Shown piece by piece: positions 19,585 to 60,703 of a DNA stretch of 64,000 bases (position 1 is its first letter; each line of letters begins with the position of its first letter). Where the stretch lies: NCBI GenBank assembly GCA_965203465.1, contig CBDBCR010000003.1:256001-320000 (forward strand). The letters run 5' to 3'. The position numbers and the translations under genes are program-made. The notes under the pieces were generated by a model that saw nothing but the letters and a program-made list of their open reading frames with translations, had not been told where the DNA came from and made no database searches. Source of the DNA: Nitrosopumilaceae archaeon. Lineage in GTDB: Archaea > Thermoproteota > Nitrososphaeria > Nitrososphaerales > Nitrosopumilaceae.

Positions 19585-21247
19585 AGAACGTCATCGCCTG
19601 CGAAAGCGCGCCGTCCCCGGTGGGCAGCACCCTGCCGGAGTGAACCACCTTGAACTCTAGTTCGAAGTTTCCGGAGGGCGCCAAGTCGGATCCGACGGTG
19701 ACGAACTGGCCGGGCGCCAGCTCTACGAACTCGCCGCCCGCCTTTACGAACGTGGCCAGCGTGCGGTACTCGTTGTCGCCCGAGTCGGTCCACGCGTCCA
19801 CCCGCAGCCGCACGCTCTCGACTGTCGGGCTTCCGGCGTTGGTCACCGTCTGCGAGACTGCCGGCGACTCTCCGCCGGTCACCAAGTCGAACGACACGGT
19901 GTCGCCAATCGAGACGGCGCAGTCCGACTGCGACAGGGCTATGCCGGCCTGCTGCGGCGAGATCTGCGCGGTGGCCGTGCGGGCCGCGTCCGTATAGTAT
20001 GGCGAGTACGAGGCGCTGCCGCTGATCCTCTCGGCCGGGCCCCTGTCCCAGTAGTTGAACGGCGCGAAGACCGGGGCCGCCGACAGGTTCACCAGATCGT
20101 AGCCGGTGTTTTCTATGAACGAGTTCCTGAACACCGTGAGGAACTGATCTATGGGGGTGTCCACGACGCGGAATATGTCGAGCTGCTCGCCCAGGTTGTC
20201 CTGGTGGACGCCGCAGACGGAGCCGGCGCACAGCAGTATCCCGTTGTGGCTGTCCCGGACGACGTTGTCGTAGATGCGCACGTTCGAGCCGTCCCCTCCC
20301 CAGATCACGACGGCCGCTTCTGGCACGGTTTCCGGGGTCCCGTTCAGGTACCTCAGGGCGTTGTTGTTGCTTACGAATGTGTTGTCGTATATCGAGAGGC
20401 TCGAATCGGCGCCGGCCAGCTTGCCCACGTCGTCGAACGTCTGCTCCGTCGCCTTTTGCACCCCGAACGCCAGCACGTTGGAGATCGTGTTGCCGTTCAC
20501 GTGCGCGTTCACGAGGCCGGCTTTGGCCAGGTTGATCCCCGCGAACGTGACCGTGTCTATGGTGTTGTTGGATATGAACAGATCTTTGTACAGGCCCGTC
20601 TCCGACAGGCGGATGGCGGTGTACAGGCGGCTCGACTGCTGATCCACCGTGGAGCCGGCCGGATGCAGCATGCCGATGTCGCGGAACAGGTTGTCGGACA
20701 CGCGCAGGTTCGTAAAAGCGGCCTGTGGATTCTGGGGCGGCGTATGCGGCCAGGGCGTCGCGGTGTTTAGGCCGAGTCCGTGGTTGCCCGTGTTGGAGAA
20801 CGTGTTGTTTGACACCGTTACGTTGGTCCTGTCTCCCCAGCCTATCTCGATCACCGAGGGGCCATAGCTCAGCGGGGCGATGTCCCTGAACACCAGGTTC
20901 TGCATCGTGACGTCGTCGCCGCGGATCTGAAACCAGCTCTCGCCCGTTATGACGGCGCCGGCCTCTCCGGTCACCGTCATCGGCTTCGAGATGATGCTGT
21001 GGCTCAAATTCGCGTGCGTGCCGCTGGAAAACGTCACGGTGCCCCCCGCGGTGACATCGTTGAAAGCGGCCTGCACTGTGCTTGTCGCGCTACCCGCCGT
21101 GATCGTGATGGCGCTCTGCGCGTATGCTGCCGGGAACGCCGCGCAGTCGGCGCACGGATCGCCTACAGACAAGGCCGCGACTGCAATGGCCAAAACTACG
21201 GCAGGCGCTGAGAGTCGGATGAACCCGCACGGGTTGCGCTTGAGCAC
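19568..21247 (-). CDS. Secreted right-handed parallel beta-helix protein
   Basis: Signal peptide; repeated xxISNNT(F/I) / xIYDN stacks. Confidence 0.75.
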   Translation of the reverse strand: MLKRNPCGFIRLSAPAVVLAIAVAALSVGDPCADCAAFPAAYAQSAITITAGSATSTVQAAFNDVTAGGTVTFSSGTHANLSHSIISKPMTVTGEAGAVITGESWFQIRGDDVTMQNLVFRDIAPLSYGPSVIEIGWGDRTNVTVSNNTFSNTGNHGLGLNTATPWPHTPPQNPQAAFTNLRVSDNLFRDIGMLHPAGSTVDQQSSRLYTAIRLSETGLYKDLFISNNTIDTVTFAGINLAKAGLVNAHVNGNTISNVLAFGVQKATEQTFDDVGKLAGADSSLSIYDNTFVSNNNALRYLNGTPETVPEAAVVIWGGDGSNVRIYDNVVRDSHNGILLCAGSVCGVHQDNLGEQLDIFRVVDTPIDQFLTVFRNSFIENTGYDLVNLSAAPVFAPFNYWDRGPAERISGSASYSPYYTDAARTATAQISPQQAGIALSQSDCAVSIGDTVSFDLVTGGESPAVSQTVTNAGSPTVESVRLRVDAWTDSGDNEYRTLATFVKAGGEFVELAPGQFVTVGSDLAPSGNFELEFKVVHSGRVLPTGDGALSQAMTFFASCG

Positions 21248-21468
21248 CCCCCCCCCCGGAGGATACTATAAAAACCCAATGTTCCGACTCGGGTAAGCGG
21301 TCGGGCCTGAATTCAAGCACGTCCGATCCACGCGTAGCGCTTTTCCGTGACTAGGCTATCCCACGACTTGGCCGCTTGCCGACTCGGGCCGCGCGATCCT
21401 TCCCGGAGCCTGCCGGGCGGAGAAAAAGACGCGCGGCAAAAACCTCGGATCAGGCCGGCGTGTCCGGG

Positions 21469-55462: not shown

Positions 55463-56294
55463 CGGGCGCGCGTTCCGGCGGCCGGTTTGGCGAGTCGCGG
55501 ACGCGCGCAAGGATCCACCAGGTTCTCAACGCCGAGAGCGGCTTTGCGAATCTTGGCCCTCCTGGAATTTCCGGGCGCAAGCCACCCGACAGCGCGTCCG
55601 GCCGCTTCGCCTTGTAGAAGACAAGAGATCGGGGAGCTAAAACCAGAATTGGCCGGCGCCGCGGATCTGGGGCGCCCGGTTTGGCTCCGGAGGCGATCTC
55701 GCCCGAGCACGTACCCGACGCCATCGCGTCGCGCGATTCTGACGAAAGCGTTTTCTTGTGCAGGGGAGCGGCTGGCGGATCCGAAGGGCGGCCGGGCGCG
55801 CGGTCTTGCGCCCGGTTCGCGCGTCTTGGAAAGAAACGGCGGCCGACCGGAGCGCCGCAAAAGAGTCGAGGCTTGTGCGCCGATACGGGAGCGCGTCGAT
55901 CCGCCGCGGGCCTGCGCGGAGCGGCGTCCGGCCCCGAAAGACGCGGGCTTCTGCAAAAAGCCGCCGCGCGCGGGATGAGTCCGGCAGGCCCATCCGCGGC
56001 GTTGATCGCGGCCGCAAGAGCCCCGGAACGGGCCTGCCGGCGGCTGGTGGCGCCCCGGCTGCGCCCGGCGCCGCGCAGTTCTCCAACGCCGTCGGCCCGG
56101 CTGCGCATAGCCGCGTGCGCCGTACGCGGCAGAACCGCCGCGGGCCGAGATCCCCGAGCCGCGGCCCTGTCTGCGCGCCGCCTAGCCGGCGCAGGCGGGC
56201 GCCGGGCGCGGGCAGGGGGTACTGTTGCGAATTCGTGGGGTAGCCCCCGGCTAGGGCGCGGAGCCGGGTTAGGCATATATCGAATCCAGAAAGC

Positions 56295-56384
56295 CGCCAA
56301 GCGCGGGATTCGAACCCGCGAAAGGCTTTCGAGACCTTGCCGCCAGTCAGGGCGGTGCCCATCCAAGCGTGCAGGCGCGCCGGC
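56295..56384 (-). ncRNA. tRNA-like (Ser/Leu-class) element, non-canonical
   Basis: Perfect T-arm GCGGG-TTCGAAT-CCCGC, long variable arm, stem CCGCC/GGCGG with 6-nt loop CTGACT, imperfect acceptor stem. Confidence 0.5.
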
Positions 56385-56414
56385 CGGAACTGGCCGGGCG
56401 CGGCCTGCGCGATC

Positions 56415-57317
56415 TTAGACCCGCTTCCCCGTCTGGGCGAGGTACCGGCTCCCGTTCTGGATCATAGTCCGCCACTTGTCGGCCCCCTCGATGAAGATCC
56501 CGGCTTCCTCGCCGGGCGTCCGCTTCAAGGTCTGGTGCTTGCGGGCGTGGTTGTAATTCACGCGGATGCCGCAGAACTCGCGGGTGTGCTTGCCTTGCAG
56601 GCCCCTGAACGTCTTTTCCCTGTCCCGTATCGTACCGTTGAGCCGTTCCATGCGGTTGTTGTTGTCCTTGCCCTTGCGGACGCCGGTGATGTGTATTTCC
56701 CGCACGTGCTCCGTCAACGGCAATACCTCCTCGGCGGCCACCCGGTACGAGTTCAATCCGTCGGTTATCATCCTGGCCGGTATCTTGCCTGTTTGCTCCA
56801 GCGTATCCTGAAACAGCTTGGTCGCGTCGTGGCCCTCCTTGCGGTCGGCCAGGTCCGAGGCCAGCCAATATCTGGTATCGTTGTCCATCGAAGAGAAAAG
56901 ATACATGAGGTCGCCGGCCACCTTTACGTAGAGCTCGTCGGCGCGGTAGTCGCTGCCTGTCTCGGGCTTTTGCCTGTCCATGTAGGCGGCCGCCACGGGG
57001 CCGTATCTTTCCACCCACCTGAATACCGCAGACCTGTCGATCTTGAGCCCCCGCGCCTCCAGGTTCTCGGCAATCTTGCCCACCGAGAGGCCGGAAAAGT
57101 GGAGCCGCAGGCATTCGGTGATCACGGCCCGCGAGTACCGCCTGTACCTGAACCCGAACCGGGCCGAAAACACCCGGTTGCATTCGCGGCACTTCATCAG
57201 TTGCGTGATACCGGACTTGTTCTGCCGTATGCCGTTCTTGTAGATGTGCCTGGAATTGCAGTACTTGCACTTTGTCGGCGTGTCGAAATTCTTTACCGTC
57301 TTTACGTATCTCTGCAT
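56415..57317 (-). CDS. IS6-family DDE transposase with N-terminal Zn finger
   Basis: CKYC...CREC, AVFRWVERY, ADELYVKV, ITDG, NNRMERLN motifs. Confidence 0.9.
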   Translation of the reverse strand: MQRYVKTVKNFDTPTKCKYCNSRHIYKNGIRQNKSGITQLMKCRECNRVFSARFGFRYRRYSRAVITECLRLHFSGLSVGKIAENLEARGLKIDRSAVFRWVERYGPVAAAYMDRQKPETGSDYRADELYVKVAGDLMYLFSSMDNDTRYWLASDLADRKEGHDATKLFQDTLEQTGKIPARMITDGLNSYRVAAEEVLPLTEHVREIHITGVRKGKDNNNRMERLNGTIRDREKTFRGLQGKHTREFCGIRVNYNHARKHQTLKRTPGEEAGIFIEGADKWRTMIQNGSRYLAQTGKRV

Positions 57318-57353
57318 GCCCCTGGGTACGGGCCGTGGTAATAAAAACATTGC

Positions 57354-57409
57354 CAAGTAAATTGCCATGTGGAAAACGGGTCAAATTCATAAAGAGGTCA
57401 ATTTACTTG
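57354..57409. promoter_or_regulatory. 11-bp inverted repeat between divergent transposase and AbrB-like genes
   Basis: CAAGTAAATTG (57354-57364) and CAATTTACTTG (57399-57409). Confidence 0.55.
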
Positions 57410-57414
57410 CCTGT

Positions 57415-57597
57415 ATGAAAATAGGAACCAACGTGACCTCGCTCTCGCTGGCCGTCGAAAAGAGCTCCACGCTGCGCACGACCGTGCCGGCCGCGGTGGC
57501 CGACAAGCTCGGCCTCAAAAAGGGCGATCGCGTAAAGTGGGATTTCGACAAGGTGGACGGCGAGTGGTTCGCCACGGTCAGGAAGCGGCCGGAATGA
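57415..57597 (+). CDS. AbrB/MazE-fold DNA-binding protein
   Basis: LRTTVPAAVADKLGLKKGDRVKW signature. Confidence 0.8.
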   Translation: MKIGTNVTSLSLAVEKSSTLRTTVPAAVADKLGLKKGDRVKWDFDKVDGEWFATVRKRPE

Positions 57598-57680
57598 GCC
57601 TCAAGATAGCCCTGACCTTGATTTTCGTGGCGGGTGCGGGCCTTGCGCTGGTATCAGGCGTGATCGCGGCCATGCCGTGA
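57594..57680 (+). CDS. 28-aa hydrophobic peptide
   Basis: MSLKIALTLIFVAGAGLALVSGVIAAMP; ATGA overlap with the AbrB-like stop. Confidence 0.5.
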   Translation: MSLKIALTLIFVAGAGLALVSGVIAAMP

Positions 57681-57793
57681 ACGCCGTTATCTTGAAAGTG
57701 TTATAATTGTTAATAACGCTTGGCCACACTTAATAACGACTCAGTGCCCGCCCGCGCCGTGCTCCCGGAGGGTCGGGCTGTGAGGGCGGCCGA

Positions 57794-58802
57794 ATGTCCC
57801 TCTTAAAGCAGGCGCGCCGCCAAGTGCCGTTTTTGGACACGGTAAAGTGCGGCGACAGCGCCCAGATGCTCAGGTCGTTCCCCGACAATTCAGTCGATCT
57901 GGTGATCACGTCCCCGCCGTACTTCCAGCAGCGGGCGTACGGCTGGGGCGGAGCGGGTGAAGAGAAGCGCGTTGACGGGTACATAGACGCCGTCATGGAG
58001 GTATTCCAGCAGTGCGTCCGGATAACCAAGGACACGGGCAGCATAGTGTTCAACATGGGCGACAAGTACCTCAACGGCAGTCTGGCGCTGGTACCGTACA
58101 GGTTCGCCATAGAAGCAACCGACGGCGGGGGCGTCAAACTGGTGAACGACATCACGTGGGTGAAGTCCAACCCGACGCCTCGCCAGTTCCAGCGCAGGCT
58201 CGTGAGCAGCACGGAGCCGTTTTTCCACTTCGTGAAATCGGACGGCTATTTCTACAACATAGGCGCGTTCAAGGGGGGGGGGGGACGCGCGCGACGGCAA
58301 GCCGCCAAAAAACACGACGATCGGGGGCCGGTACAAGGATCTCGTCAAAAAGTCGGATCTGACGCCGCGCCAGAAGCGGCTCGCCCTGGCCGCGCTGGCC
58401 GAGACCGTCCAAGAGGTCAAGTCGGGCAAGATACACAGCTTCCGCATGAAAATACGGGGCATACACTCGCCGGCGTTCGGCGGCCAAGCCGGGGGCAGGC
58501 AGATCCAGATTGAGAAAAACGGATTCACCATAATCAAGCTGTCCGGCAAGTCGCTGGCCCGCGATGTCGTGGTTCACAAGGTCGAGAGCCTGAAGTGGAA
58601 CGACCACCCGGCCATATACCCAGAGAAAATAATACGCGACATGATAGAGCTGCTCACGCCCGAAGGCGCCGTAGTGATCGATCCGTATATGGGGAGCGGC
58701 ACGACCGGCGTGGCCGCCAAGACCGCCGGGCGCCGGTGGGCCGGGATAGACATCAACCCCGAATACTGCGAGGCGGCCAACAGGAGGATCGGCAAAGCGT
58801 GA
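57794..58802 (+). CDS. N4-cytosine/N6-adenine DNA methyltransferase (beta class), frameshifted at G12
   Basis: TSPPY in the first frame; HPAIYP and DPYMGSGTT in the +1 frame; G run at 58273-58284 at the junction. Confidence 0.88.
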
Positions 58803-59902
58803 ACGACGGCTTGGACACGTACAGGCAGAAACTGGAAGGCTGTCTGGAAAAGGCCAAGGACGGAGGCGCGCCGATCGACGACGAGACGGCCGGGATGGTG
58901 CGGATCGTCGTGGACAATTCCGGCAACGCCACGGGCGTCCTAGCCGTCACGCTCACGTCCCTGTTGAAAAAATCGATCGACCGGGGGCAGGATGTCCGCA
59001 TGCATCAATTCCAGATGCCGGGCGGCTATTCGGGGCGGGGGCTGGACAGCAAGGTCGTGACGCCGTGGCTGAAAAGGCACTATTTCCCGGCCATGCGTTC
59101 GGGCTCCGGCTGGCTCACGCGCTCGCTGGAGCAGGCCGTGCCGTACACGCTGGATTATCCCGGCAAGATCAACCCGCCGCCGGTCAAGGCGGCGTTTCTC
59201 GGGATTTTGGACGCGGTGCAGGACGGGGCTGATCCGGACGCGCTCATAGTATATTTCGCCGAGAGGCTGATCGAGAAACGGGAGCGGGAGCGCGTCGATC
59301 TCACGCTTCCGGCGGGCAGGCGCATAAACGACATAGTGGACATGCTCGGCAGGCATTTCACGGCCGACTACGGGGGCGCGCACGGGGCCGCCCGCCTGCC
59401 GGTGCTTGCCATATACGCGGCCTACGAGCAGATGATGGCAGAGTTGCGCCGCTACAAGGGGTGCGAGCTGAGGCCCATGCAGCACCACACGGCGGCAGAC
59501 GCCAAGACCGGCACCGTGGGGGACATAGAGGTCGAGGACGGGGGCGGCAGGCTGTTCGAGGCGCTGGAAATCAAGCACGGGCAGGCCATAACGCTGGCAA
59601 TGGTCGAGAACGCCTACGAGAAGTTCAGATCGGAGGGTATAAAACGGTATTACGTTCTCACCACGCACGAGGACTATCAAGGATCTGATGATATGACCGA
59701 CAAGATACTGGAAATCCACAGGAACACCGGGTGTCAGGTGATCGTCAACGGTGTCATGCATACGCTCAGGTACTACCTGAGGCTGCTTGACGACCCGACG
59801 GACTTTCTGCGCCGGTACGTCGACCAGCTCAACCAGGATCCCACGGTGCTGTACGAACACAAGTCCGAATGGAACAGGATAGCCGGAGGCGCGTTGGTAT
59901 GA
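58799..59902 (+). CDS. Putative type II restriction endonuclease (PD-(D/E)xK)
   Basis: GTGA overlap with the MTase stop; GDIEV...EALEIKH nuclease-like motif. Confidence 0.7.
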   Translation: MNDGLDTYRQKLEGCLEKAKDGGAPIDDETAGMVRIVVDNSGNATGVLAVTLTSLLKKSIDRGQDVRMHQFQMPGGYSGRGLDSKVVTPWLKRHYFPAMRSGSGWLTRSLEQAVPYTLDYPGKINPPPVKAAFLGILDAVQDGADPDALIVYFAERLIEKRERERVDLTLPAGRRINDIVDMLGRHFTADYGGAHGAARLPVLAIYAAYEQMMAELRRYKGCELRPMQHHTAADAKTGTVGDIEVEDGGGRLFEALEIKHGQAITLAMVENAYEKFRSEGIKRYYVLTTHEDYQGSDDMTDKILEIHRNTGCQVIVNGVMHTLRYYLRLLDDPTDFLRRYVDQLNQDPTVLYEHKSEWNRIAGGALV

Positions 59903-60126
59903 TGGTGGGCATATCCGAACTGATAAGAAACGTGTTCAGCGACGGCGAGATACACACGCTGGAGGAGGCGTATCTGGCGGTGCTGGCGAGGATGAAGGCG
60001 GCGGAGGTCGAAGTAAGCGACGGCACCGTGCGCCACCGCGTCAGGAGCCGGGTACATGGCCTACACAAAAGCGGCGCAATCAAGCGCGTCGGGCCGGCGG
60101 CTTACATACTCAACAAGGACGGGTAG
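59899..60126 (+). CDS. Small winged-helix-like protein
   Basis: HTLEEAY...TVRHRVRSRVHGLHKSGAIKRVGPAAY pattern; ATGA-like overlap with the upstream gene. Confidence 0.55.
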   Translation: MMVGISELIRNVFSDGEIHTLEEAYLAVLARMKAAEVEVSDGTVRHRVRSRVHGLHKSGAIKRVGPAAYILNKDG

Positions 60127-60356
60127 GCTGCCGCGCCGATGATCGGGGGCGCGAATTGGAAGCGGCACCGTCGCGCTTCTAGCACGTCGGTACGGGCGTC
60201 CCGGTTCCCGTGCGGGACTCGGGCAGGCGCGCGTCGGCCGGCCCGTGCTTCGTCATGTCCGTGAACGCCGGCCTCACCCTGCCGCCGACGGCCTTGAGCG
60301 TCCCAACGGCCTCTTCGAGGCCCACGCCGTACCAGTGCATCGGGCCGCGCGCCGCC

Positions 60357-60578
60357 CTACCAAAAAACCATGTCCGTCTTTATTTCATTGGATTCCGACC
60401 TTACCGTGACGCGGCGCTTCAGCTTGCCGTCTTTGCCGCGTTCGTACCTCCAGGCCGTCCCGTCGCCCCGGTGCACGGTGAGCGTCTTTACCGGCTCCCC
60501 GTCGTAGACGCGGCGGCGGAAAATCTGGAGGGGTGGCCGCCACTTCGCTTCCACTGCCGGCGATCGCCGAGCGCCCAT
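60357..60578 (-). CDS. Hypothetical protein (cargo)
   Basis: 73-aa ORF with TTAAA upstream, inside the right TIR. Confidence 0.4.
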   Translation of the reverse strand: MGARRSPAVEAKWRPPLQIFRRRVYDGEPVKTLTVHRGDGTAWRYERGKDGKLKRRVTVRSESNEIKTDMVFW

Positions 60579-60703
60579 TTAAGAGCCGGGCTTCTGGCCT
60601 CTGGCCGCGCCATGCCTAGCCGGGGGCTACCCCACGAATTCGCAACAGTGCCGGGCAGGGCCGCCACCGAACGGTTAATAGCGGGAGGGCCGGGCGGCCG
60701 GCC

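What the first reader, a model, noticed from the sequence alone, without database searches (positions are those of the whole stretch)
56210..60660. IS6-family cargo transposon carrying a complete restriction-modification locus
Seen: 38-bp TIRs (37/38) and an exact 8-bp target duplication GGGCAGGG enclose one intact-looking transposase plus an AbrB-like gene, a small peptide, an MTase, a putative REase, a wHTH protein and small ORFs. Established: IS26/IS6 ends begin GGCACTGTTGCAAA and give 8-bp duplications, but these elements are normally about 0.8-0.9 kb, have shorter TIRs and move cargo as two-copy composites. Inference: a single-transposase, passenger-carrying IS6 unit that recently delivered defence genes to an archaeal genome. 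This is the best candidate for an undescribed system in the window.
Basis: partly seen in the sequence, partly recalled or inferred. Interest (0 to 1): 0.85.

Follow-up and report, generated by a model that had tools for sequence, protein, structure and literature searches.

The report
Archaeal IS6-like transposon carrying restriction-modification genes
A 4.4-kb jumping gene with one transposase has recently inserted into a sponge-associated ammonia-oxidising archaeon, carrying a restriction-modification defence pair, and it belongs to a large archaeal transposon family that routinely carries such cargo.

Summary
38-nt inverted ends (37/38) at 56218-56255 and 60615-60652 are flanked by an exact 8-bp duplication, GGGCAGGG. 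A sponge-metagenome contig from another study matches both flanks without mismatch and skips exactly 4443 bp (4435 + 8). That is the empty site.

Inside are:
- one intact IS6-like DDE transposase;
- an AbrB-like gene;
- an N4/N6 DNA methylase whose frame breaks at a G12 run;
- a restriction enzyme whose fold matches EcoT38I;
- a small putative wHTH ORF.

There is no internal end. A decayed sibling elsewhere in the genome has the same backbone but a different R-M pair.

In 80 public archaeal loci with related transposases, 36 have GG..CTGT ends plus an exact 8-bp duplication. They are 1.9-7.0 kb long, and 11 carry DNA methylases. The family tends to land 5 bp upstream of a TATA box (21 of 38 sites, against 6% in controls). 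This copy sits 14 bp from one.

Repeat tracts break or sit inside several cargo methylases, which suggests phase variation.

This scan has noted the same kind of element before on other DNA. I found no paper describing it. Verdict: a real element, and a new variant of a known kind.

The parts
56210..56217 (.). Left copy of the 8-bp target-site duplication, GGGCAGGG
   Evidence: Read directly. The empty-site contig holds a single copy (the joint skips 4443 = 4435 + 8, with 9 letters fitting either side).
56218..56255 (+). Left terminal inverted repeat (38 nt; tip GGTACTGTTGCGAATTCG)
   Evidence: It aligns with the ends of the sibling and of related elements (alignment A4).
56256..56414 (-). Spacer between the left end and the transposase stop codon. 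It holds a tRNA-like T-arm piece at 56293-56324.
   Evidence: The T-arm stretch matches T-arms of real tRNA genes of the genome, up to 18/18. Default ARAGORN and Rfam find nothing here. ARAGORN in intron mode calls a weak tRNA-Arg(CCG) with mismatched stems, which I treat as unreliable. A related copy in run X1 joins the transposase end directly to an inverted end and lacks this spacer (joint 56416/60609).
56415..57368 (-). IS6-like DDE transposase. The ORF is 317 aa; the real start is probably the Met at residue 18. It has a 4-Cys zinc finger and lacks the N-terminal SWIM domain found in most relatives.
   Evidence: PF13610 DDE_Tnp_IS240, E 5.4e-13, 49.7 bits against a cut-off of 27. NF033587 IS6, E 1e-35, 123.3 bits against a cut-off of 125. 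Columns invariant in the six-sequence alignment include C34, C37, C60, C63, D144, E145 and D203. E241 is invariant in the four-sequence alignment, where the truncated row is left out. Identity to annotated bacterial IS6 transposases is 25-31%.
57415..57597 (+). AbrB/MazE-fold small gene (60 aa), divergent from the transposase gene
   Evidence: PF04014, E 4.4e-7, 30.2 bits against a cut-off of 24.7. It is 60% identical to the sibling's gene. A homologue sits in the same place and orientation in 9 of 44 elements, three of them without a methylase.
57594..57680 (+). 28-aa hydrophobic ORF overlapping the AbrB stop codon. Unverified.
   Evidence: ORF only. No family hit. No counterpart was seen in the sibling's ORF list.
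57794..58802 (+). Beta-class N4/N6 DNA methyltransferase: one gene in two frames, broken at the G12 run at 58273-58284
   Evidence: PF01555 positions 1-121 match the first ORF and positions 159-220 the second. PADLOC names it MTase_II. The second frame is open from 58263. The two pieces tile onto full-length 327-346-aa homologues, which have no Gly run at the break. SPPY and DPYMGSGTT motifs were read.
58799..59902 (+). Type II restriction endonuclease (367 aa) of the EcoT38I/SacI-like family. Its GTG start overlaps the methylase stop codon.
   Evidence: AlphaFold2 mean pLDDT 89.9. Top Foldseek hits are EcoT38I, 7edb/7e8r, E 4.7e-11 to 8.8e-10, probability 1.00, TM 0.35-0.42. D242, E257 and K259 are invariant in 36 sequences. 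PF09566 RE_SacI matches 2 of 36 family members directly, but not this ORF.
59899..60126 (+). 75-aa ORF whose ATG overlaps the endonuclease stop codon. Possible winged helix.
   Evidence: No Pfam or NCBIfam hit. The ESM Atlas gives unnamed small proteins at 0.93-0.94, a DpnI_C cluster at 0.90 and a HARE-HTH cluster at 0.89. These are leads only.
60127..60614 (.). Unassigned 488 bp. The ORFs at 60357-60578(-) and 60179-60340(-) are unsupported.
   Evidence: No family hits. The Atlas recognition value of 1676 is below the 2300 mark, and the best score is 0.80.
60615..60652 (-). Right terminal inverted repeat (tip GGCACTGTTGCGAATTCG)
60653..60660 (.). Right copy of the target-site duplication, GGGCAGGG
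60675..60680 (+). Context, not part of the element: a TTAATA box 14 nt beyond the duplication and 23 nt before the GTG start of the next host gene (60704)
   Evidence: Read. It scores only 5/8 against TTTAWATA. That it is a promoter is inferred from its spacing to the start codon.

Best explanation
Positions 56218-60652 are one autonomous, single-transposase transposon of an archaeal IS6-like lineage. It inserted recently into an intergenic, promoter-proximal site of a Nitrosopumilaceae-type sponge symbiont and made an 8-bp target duplication.

Shown here:
- the ends, the duplication and the empty allele;
- an intact DDE transposase;
- the cargo genes: an AbrB-fold gene heading the cargo side, an N4/N6 methylase, an EcoT38I/SacI-like endonuclease and a small ORF, the last three joined by overlapping stop and start codons.

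Inferred:
- The transposase binds the 38-nt ends and moves the whole 4.4 kb as a unit. By analogy with IS6/IS26 this would go through a replicative cointegrate that host recombination resolves.
- The R-M pair acts as a defence and addiction module.
- The AbrB-like protein is a backbone regulator, not part of the R-M pair.
- The G12 run is a slippage-prone switch. When the methylase is out of frame, as it is here, the coupled endonuclease would not be translated either, so the whole system would be off without killing the host.
For: Ends and duplication:
- establish the 38-nt ends and the 8-bp duplication.

Empty site:
- In run X1 (a sponge metagenome from a different study than the near-complete holder X7), one 5891-bp contig matches 55700-56208 and 60652-61200 with 0 differences.
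- The two matches abut in that contig and skip 4443 bp.

Foreign composition:
- Element GC is 0.62, against 0.69 and 0.67 in the flanks.

Single unit:
- The element holds one transposase gene and no internal end.

Sibling with swapped cargo:
- It lies at G000:C3:740931-745064 and has ends with the same tip.
- Its transposase is 85.8% identical in DNA but broken, and its AbrB homologue is 60% identical.
- Its cargo is a C5 methylase plus a HindVP-type endonuclease.

Same end type, other R-M cargo:
- Other Nitrosopumilaceae genomes hold elements with the same end type.
- L047 and E6 carry an EcoRI-type methylase plus a GmrSD_N-HNH protein.
- E7 carries a methylase-HNH fusion.

Family survey:
- 36 of 80 loci have GG..CTGT ends plus an exact 8-bp duplication, and these elements are 1855-7034 bp long.
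- 11 of the 36 carry a DNA methylase.

Endonuclease and methylase:
- Endonuclease fold.
- Methylase as one broken gene.
- At least 13 methylase homologues and endonuclease homologues list the same longest-contig length, which suggests the two genes travel as a linked pair.

Switch idea:
- The sibling's methylase breaks at an (AG)9 run.
- L050's methylase breaks at G10.
- L052 holds an in-frame C11 in an element of 33% GC.
- L065 has a C10 run at the methylase's 3' end.
- The genome has 52 G/C runs of 9 or more, with lengths peaking at 11-15 rather than decaying. 5 of 62 repeat tracts lie within 600 bp of methylase genes, against 1.15 expected.
Against: - No transposition intermediate was seen. 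No end-to-end joint and no cointegrate appear in the contigs laid, but contigs cannot show rare forms.
- The mechanism is borrowed from bacterial IS26. The transposase is only 25-31% identical to such enzymes. Harmer and Hall (PMC6807381, passages read) argue that archaeal 'IS6' elements may be a separate family with no experimental data.
- The genome holds only one intact copy and one decayed copy, so current activity is not shown.
- The methylase is out of frame, so the R-M system may simply be dead. No length variation at G12 was observed. Run X7's contig carries the same G12, and no near-identical in-frame allele is in the protein collection (best full-length relative 71% identical).
- This copy does not sit at the family's usual 5-bp distance from a TATA box. 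Its distance is 14 bp, to a box that scores only 5/8.
- The sibling has no clean duplication: GATCGCGG on one side, AATCGGTT on the other.
Confidence: 0.88

Rival explanations
1. An ordinary short IS sits beside an R-M island. The distal inverted repeat is a solo end or a chance repeat, and the 4.4-kb unit never moved as a whole.
For: IS6-family elements on record are 0.7-1.7 kb with ends of 15-20 bp, and only one carries a passenger gene (Varani et al., PMC7986276, passages read).
Against: The empty-site contig lacks exactly the 4435 bp plus one 8-bp repeat. No inner end exists. 35 of the 36 relatives with ends and a duplication are longer than 2 kb.
Confidence: 0.03
2. The element is real, but its R-M cargo is decaying junk. 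On this reading the G12 frameshift is an inactivating mutation, or a homopolymer sequencing error, and not a switch.
For: The frame is broken in the assembly and in run X7's contig. The sibling's methylase and transposase are both broken. No in-frame near-identical allele was found. A simple estimate of mine, not a tool result, puts the number of G12 runs expected by chance at a few in a 65% GC genome.
Against: The endonuclease and the transposase are intact. Homologues have no Gly run at the break, so the tract is a lineage-specific insert in a variable loop. G/C runs of 10-11 occur in cargo methylases of elements with 33-47% GC, one in frame and one out of frame. The lengths of the genome's G/C runs peak at 11-15.
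Confidence: 0.35
3. The element is non-autonomous at present. Its SWIM-less transposase would be inactive, and the insertion was made in trans by a relative's enzyme.
For: The transposase lacks the N-terminal SWIM zinc finger present in five aligned relatives. It sits on a long branch, length 1.79. Other IS6-like transposase genes exist in the genome, at up to 43% identity.
Against: The DDE residues, the 4-Cys finger and the full catalytic domain are kept. The only ends of this type in the genome belong to this element and its decayed sibling. L047, its nearest relative in the tree, is also shorter (354 aa) and has an exact duplication.
Confidence: 0.1

Closest known systems
IS6/IS26 family insertion sequences (IS26, IS257, IS240; archaeal clades A; zinc-finger clades h/i) as reviewed in PMC7986276 and PMC6807381
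   Same: A DDE transposase that matches PF13610 and NCBIfam's IS6 model. Ends with a GG tip and a CTGTT motif. An 8-bp target duplication. A single transposase gene reading towards one end.
   Different: The element is 4.4 kb rather than 0.7-1.7 kb, and its ends are 38 nt rather than 15-20. It carries five or more passenger genes inside one pair of ends, where IS6 elements normally flank cargo with two direct IS copies. Identity to bacterial members is only 25-31%. Relatives show a preference for sites next to a TATA box.
ISDsp3 and 'tIS' (transporter IS) of other families, e.g. IS1595 (named in PMC7986276 and in the reference list of PMC2853133)
   Same: An IS-type transposase and its ends enclose passenger genes.
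   Different: ISDsp3 is given as the only IS6 member with cargo, a single hypothetical gene. Here cargo is the rule across a whole archaeal lineage and is often a full R-M system.
Transposon-like R-M units flanked by imperfect inverted repeats with an 8-bp duplication (Furuta et al. 2010, PMC2853133; passages read)
   Same: R-M genes lie between imperfect inverted repeats, there is an 8-bp duplication, and the empty site is seen in a related genome.
   Different: Those bacterial units had no transposase, or only a remnant, and their mover was unknown. This one carries its own intact transposase and belongs to a definable family.
Phase-variable R-M systems and phasevarions of host-adapted bacteria
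   Same: A simple-sequence repeat inside the methylase gene sets its reading frame.
   Different: This is an archaeal Type II pair on a transposon. Switching itself has not been observed here.

Membership tests
IS6 family (ISfinder sense) | DDE transposase of the IS6/IS240 type | tested here: met
   PF13610 scores 49.7 bits against a cut-off of 27. tblastn hits fall on genes annotated 'IS6 family transposase' and 'IS240 protein' at 25-31% identity.
IS6 family (ISfinder sense) | Passes NCBIfam's equivalog model NF033587 | tested here: inconclusive
   123.3 bits against a cut-off of 125, E 1e-35. This is just below the curated line.
IS6 family (ISfinder sense) | Ends with a GG tip and cTGTt and caaa motifs, 15-20 bp long | tested here: inconclusive
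   The GG tip and CTGTT are present. 'cgaa' stands where 'caaa' is expected. The repeat is 38 nt, not 15-20 (motif definition from PMC7986276).
IS6 family (ISfinder sense) | 8-bp target duplication | tested here: met
GGGCAGGG lies on both sides and occurs once in the empty allele. 36 relatives also have exact 8-bp duplications. The passages I read do not state the number.
IS6 family (ISfinder sense) | Small size (0.7-1.7 kb) with one gene | tested here: not met
   4435 bp, with at least five genes besides the transposase.
IS6 family (ISfinder sense) | Moves only by cointegrate formation | not testable with these tools
   No intermediates can be seen in contigs.
Type II restriction-modification system | DNA methyltransferase with catalytic and AdoMet-binding motifs | tested here: inconclusive
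   PF01555 matches both halves, and SPPY and DPYMGSGTT are present. But the frame is broken at G12.
Type II restriction-modification system | Cognate endonuclease next to the methylase | tested here: met
   The fold matches EcoT38I at E 4.7e-11, and D242, E257 and K259 are invariant. Start and stop codons overlap. Linked homologue pairs are inferred from equal contig lengths.
Phase-variable (contingency) locus | Simple-sequence repeat inside the coding region that sets the frame | tested here: met
   G12 lies at the frame break, and homologues lack it.
Phase-variable (contingency) locus | Repeat length varies within or between populations, with on and off states | tested here: inconclusive
   Only G12 was seen (contigs drop rare variants). 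Different genes in relatives show both in-frame and out-of-frame tracts.
Promoter-proximal-targeting archaeal IS6-like cargo transposons (family seen in this survey and in earlier scan notes) | The duplication ends about 5 bp upstream of a TATA box that reads away from the element | tested here: not met
   For the family: 21 of 38 sites, with offsets of 3-7 and 12 of them at exactly 5. For this copy: the best match is 5/8 at script offset 12, and the TTAATA core starts 14 nt beyond the duplication.

The most novel reading that the evidence does not exclude
Archaea of several phyla host a large, unnamed lineage of IS6-like unit transposons that serve as shuttles for defence genes. They would dock at a fixed distance upstream of BRE/TATA promoter elements, which leaves the host gene's promoter intact. 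Many of their R-M cargoes would carry simple-sequence repeats that switch the methylase, and through translational coupling the endonuclease, on and off. This element would then be a mobile, phase-variable R-M system in an archaeon.
Probability: 0.35. Interest if true: 0.85.

Novelty: new variant of a known kind. Interest (0 to 1): 0.68.

Why it matters
IS6/IS26 elements are the textbook case of insertion sequences that move cargo only as two-copy arrays. The family review names a single member with one passenger gene.

Here an IS6-like transposase moves a multi-gene defence module inside one pair of ends, and a population-level empty site proves a recent insertion. Relatives across Nitrososphaerota, Bathyarchaeia and methanogens do the same.

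This gives a concrete route by which restriction-modification systems spread and are swapped in archaea, including sponge symbionts known to be rich in such systems. It also offers two testable leads:
- site choice next to promoters;
- repeat-driven switching of a mobile R-M pair.

Tried and rejected
- **Exact end pattern in other genomes.** A scan of genome contigs found 0 matches. The window's own genome may be left out of that collection.
- **tRNA gene in the left arm.** Default ARAGORN and Rfam find none. The intron-mode call has mismatched stems, and the same mode gives many dubious calls genome-wide. I treat the stretch as a tRNA-like fragment only.
- **Direct family hit for the endonuclease.** Pfam, NCBIfam and PADLOC gave nothing for this ORF. 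A profile search of PDB sequences also found nothing. Only the fold search settled it.
- **Near-identical in-frame methylase allele.** None found; the best full-length relative is 71% identical.
- **Viral carriers.** 4 virus-labelled contigs encode relatives. Only one has an inverted-repeat pair, and it has no duplication. No conclusion can be drawn.
- **Circular or cointegrate forms.** No such joint appears among the contigs laid. Parts of the element without cover in runs X1, X9 and X10 say nothing.
- **The 73-aa minus-strand ORF.** No support.
- **Rejected reading: integrase-type island.** There is no integrase, and the direct repeat is a duplicated target that occurs once in the empty allele.
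- **Literature.** Searches found no description of IS6-like cargo transposons with R-M in archaea. I read passages only, not whole papers or supplements. Supplementary tables of PMC6563490 and PMC13343696 were not opened and could list such elements.


Full report
**1. Observation**

The window holds a 38-nt inverted repeat at 56218-56255 and 60615-60652, 37/38 complementary. A 23-nt end pattern with up to three mismatches occurs only at these two places, and none of 100 shuffles gave two matches. GGGCAGGG lies directly outside both arms.

The 4435-bp interior has GC 0.62, against 0.69 and 0.67 in the 2-kb flanks (profile). The window is G000:C3:256001-320000 of a 2.26-Mb, 4-contig genome of about 65% GC. 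The nearest public relatives are Nitrosopumilaceae MAGs. The runs that hold the sequence are labelled sponge or marine metagenomes.

**2. Genes**

- *Transposase.* On the minus strand at 56415-57368 lies a 317-aa DDE transposase. It matches PF13610 DDE_Tnp_IS240 at 49.7 bits (cut-off 27) and NCBIfam IS6 at 123.3 bits (cut-off 125). It is 25-31% identical to annotated bacterial IS6 transposases. Four Cys residues and D144, E145 and D203 are invariant in the six-sequence alignment. E241 is invariant in the four-sequence alignment, where the truncated row is left out. Most relatives carry an extra N-terminal SWIM finger that this protein lacks.
- *AbrB-like gene.* It is divergent from the transposase gene, at 57415-57597 (PF04014).
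- *Methylase.* A beta-class N4/N6 methylase follows, split into two frames. The break lies at a G12 run (58273-58284), and the second frame is open from 58263. The two pieces tile onto full-length 327-346-aa homologues, one of them from Cenarchaeum symbiosum A. These homologues have no Gly run at that point.
- *Endonuclease.* The next ORF (58799-59902) starts with a GTG that overlaps the methylase stop codon. It has no direct family hit. It folds with mean pLDDT 89.9, and its best structural matches are the EcoT38I restriction endonuclease (E 4.7e-11 to 8.8e-10, probability 1.00). D242, E257 and K259 are invariant in 36 family members. This looks like a PD-(D/E)xK site, which is my reading of the motif. 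Two of the 36 members match PF09566 RE_SacI directly.
- *Small ORFs.* A 75-aa ORF overlaps the endonuclease stop codon and may be a winged helix (a lead only). The 28-aa peptide and the two minus-strand ORFs near the right end are unsupported.

**3. It moved as one unit, and recently**

- No inner end exists. The 14-nt tip with up to three mismatches occurs only at the two outer ends.
- In run X1, from a study other than that of the near-complete holder X7, a 5891-bp contig matches 55700-56208 and 60652-61200 without a single difference. The two matches abut in the contig, and the joint skips 4443 bp, which equals 4435 + 8. Nine letters fit either side. That is the empty site with one copy of GGGCAGGG.
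- Run X7's own contig set reproduces 57264-60644 exactly, G12 included. Run X9, from another study, holds identical pieces at low depth.

**4. Sibling in the same genome**

The end pattern has one more match in the genome, and the transposase has one close copy (88% in protein, 85.8% in DNA), broken by a stop codon and a frameshift. Together they define a 4134-bp element at C3:740931-745064 (L012 2931-7064).

It has the same layout: end, transposase, AbrB homologue (60% identical), methylase, endonuclease, end. Its cargo differs: a C5 methylase (PF00145) and a HindVP-type endonuclease (PF09519). It has no clean duplication (GATCGCGG against AATCGGTT), and its methylase frame breaks at an (AG)9 run.

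**5. The family**

*First look at relatives.* Transposase relatives occur in 21 of 41 related genomes. A first look at 20 regions found long inverted repeats around the transposase gene with R-M cargo:
- HsdM + HsdS;
- D12 methylase + HNH + an AbrB-like gene;
- EcoRI-type methylase + GmrSD_N-HNH;
- a methylase-HNH fusion.

Elements with the same end type as ours (GGYACTGTTGCRAATTCG) are E0, its sibling, L047, E6, E7 and L028. The five whose cargo can be read all carry a methylase. L028's contig is too short to tell.

*Wider scan.* A scan with a four-sequence profile found 380 related stretches in public archaeal genomes, of which 80 loci were kept. My script required an inverted repeat flanking the transposase gene and an exact 8-bp duplication. 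It allowed the boundary to shift by up to 3 nt on each side and accepted a GG, GA or AG tip.
- 36 of the 80 loci passed, with lengths of 1855-7034 bp. Only one is under 2 kb.
- The other 44 either lacked a repeat that my seed could find, were cut by contig ends, or had no exact duplication. They are not counted as negatives.

*Cargo.* Pfam on 192 greedy ORFs (E up to 1e-4) gave the following.
- DNA methylases in 11 of 36 elements: Type II pairs, Type IIG/MmeI-like, a Type III Mod/Res pair, and EcoRI-type methylase + GmrSD_N-HNH.
- Nucleases alone in 3.
- ClpP/SDH-type or proteasome-like proteases, MazF, ParB_N/DUF488, DprA or unknown genes in the rest.

*Tree.* In a tree of 41 transposases, R-M cargo needs 8 changes of state, at least 6 of them forced by well-supported branches. 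It is concentrated in the Nitrososphaerota rows. Our element pairs with L047, but both sit on long branches, so that join is uncertain.

*AbrB homologue.* It lies divergent from the transposase gene in 9 of 44 elements, including three without a methylase. I therefore place it with the backbone and not with the R-M pair. This is an inference.

**6. Site choice**

Earlier notes of this scan claimed promoter targeting for related families. I tested this on my own set of 38 sites.
- Reading away from the element, 21 sites have a 7/8 or better match to TTTAWATA within 14 nt of the duplication. The same is true at 6.2% of 11,400 random positions in the same loci.
- The binomial p-value is 4e-16. 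The sites are not fully independent, since some come from one genome.
- Offsets run from 3 to 7, and 12 of the 21 are exactly 5. The two sides are used about equally, 11 and 10.

Our copy does not fit this spacing. Its only AT-rich box (TTAATA, 60675-60680) starts 14 nt beyond the duplication. It lies 23 nt before the GTG of the next gene, a spacing typical of a leaderless archaeal promoter. This rests on established knowledge and inference. The neighbours are a NAC gene upstream and unknown ORFs, then TBP, downstream.

**7. The broken methylase**

Three readings remain: a sequencing error, plain decay, or a repeat-driven switch.
- *Against error:* run X7's separate contig set carries the same G12 at a depth of about 77.
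- *For a switch:*
  - The tract is a lineage-specific insert in a variable loop.
  - The sibling breaks at (AG)9.
  - L050's methylase breaks at G10 just after its SPPY motif.
  - L052 carries an in-frame C11 in an element of 33% GC.
  - L065 has a C10 run at the methylase's 3' end.
  - L053 has a (TGTCTGG)26 array.
  - The genome has 52 G/C runs of 9 or more, with lengths peaking at 11-15 rather than decaying. 5 of 62 tracts lie within 600 bp of methylase genes, against 1.15 expected (p 0.006).
- *Against a switch:* no length variation was seen, and no in-frame near-identical allele was found.

The overlapping stop and start codons would let an out-of-frame methylase also silence the endonuclease. 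That would explain how cells tolerate the off state. This is an inference.

**8. Comparison with what is known**

- The IS6 review names one member with a single passenger gene. It describes ends of 15-20 bp with GG tips, and two-copy 'pseudo-compound' transposons (PMC7986276, passages).
- Harmer and Hall argue that archaeal members are only distantly related, have longer ends and lack experimental data (PMC6807381, passages).
- The Thaumarchaeota mobilome survey treats IS-like transposons as elements of one or two genes (PMC6563490, passages).
- Furuta et al. described R-M units between imperfect inverted repeats with 8-bp duplications, but without a working transposase (PMC2853133, passages).
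- A 2026 survey of archaeal IS does not mention passenger genes, and its two uses of 'cargo' are in its reference list (PMC13343696, term search).
- My searches found no description of this family. Supplements were not opened.
- Earlier notes of this scan describe the same kind of element in DPANN and ammonia-oxidising archaea, and a G16 run in another methylase of this genome.

**9. Verdict**

- It works like an IS6-type element that carries cargo within its own ends.
- It fails the size and single-gene criteria of the IS6 family, and it sits just under one curated score. I therefore call it IS6-like.
- It is a new variant of a known kind. The family-level traits (routine cargo, promoter-proximal docking, repeat tracts in cargo methylases) are the most interesting part.

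Noticed in passing
G000:C3:740931-745064 (L012 2931-7064), outside the window: A decayed sibling transposon with the same backbone but a C5 methylase + HindVP-type endonuclease and a 121-aa minus-strand gene. Its methylase frame breaks at an (AG)9 run, and it has no clean target duplication.
   Followed up: yes
whole genome G000; one run inside the window at about 21247-21257 (C3:277247-277257): The genome has 52 poly-G/C runs of 9 nt or more, with lengths peaking at 11-15. Among runs of 11 or more, contig C1 has G in 13 of 14, while contig C3 has C in 23 of 24; the element's G12 is the single G run on C3.
   Followed up: partly
window 56293-56324 (minus strand): A tRNA T-arm-like stretch lies inside the element's left arm. 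A related copy in run X1 lacks the whole 160-bp spacer.
   Followed up: partly
L053 4779-4960: A (TGTCTGG)26 heptamer array lies between an EcoRI-type methylase gene and a GmrSD gene, inside a 6.3-kb related transposon.
   Followed up: no
L065 3637-10529: A 6.9-kb related element whose 'ends' are a perfect 462-bp inverted repeat. It holds two N6_N4 methylase genes in opposite orientation around a ResIII gene and the transposase gene.
   Followed up: no
L039 8974-10167 and L064 5301-6461: A DDE_Tnp_4 (IS5-like) insertion sequence is nested inside two related cargo transposons. In L064 it splits an MmeI-like gene.
   Followed up: no
L120 (contig labelled uncultured Pirellulales bacterium): A family member with exact ends and duplication sits in a bin labelled bacterial. 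In the tree it groups with Bathyarchaeia rows, so the contig may be mis-binned.
   Followed up: no
window 55463-56209: About 750 bp of 70-76% GC lie between the NAC gene and the insertion site, with no supported gene and no Rfam match.
   Followed up: partly
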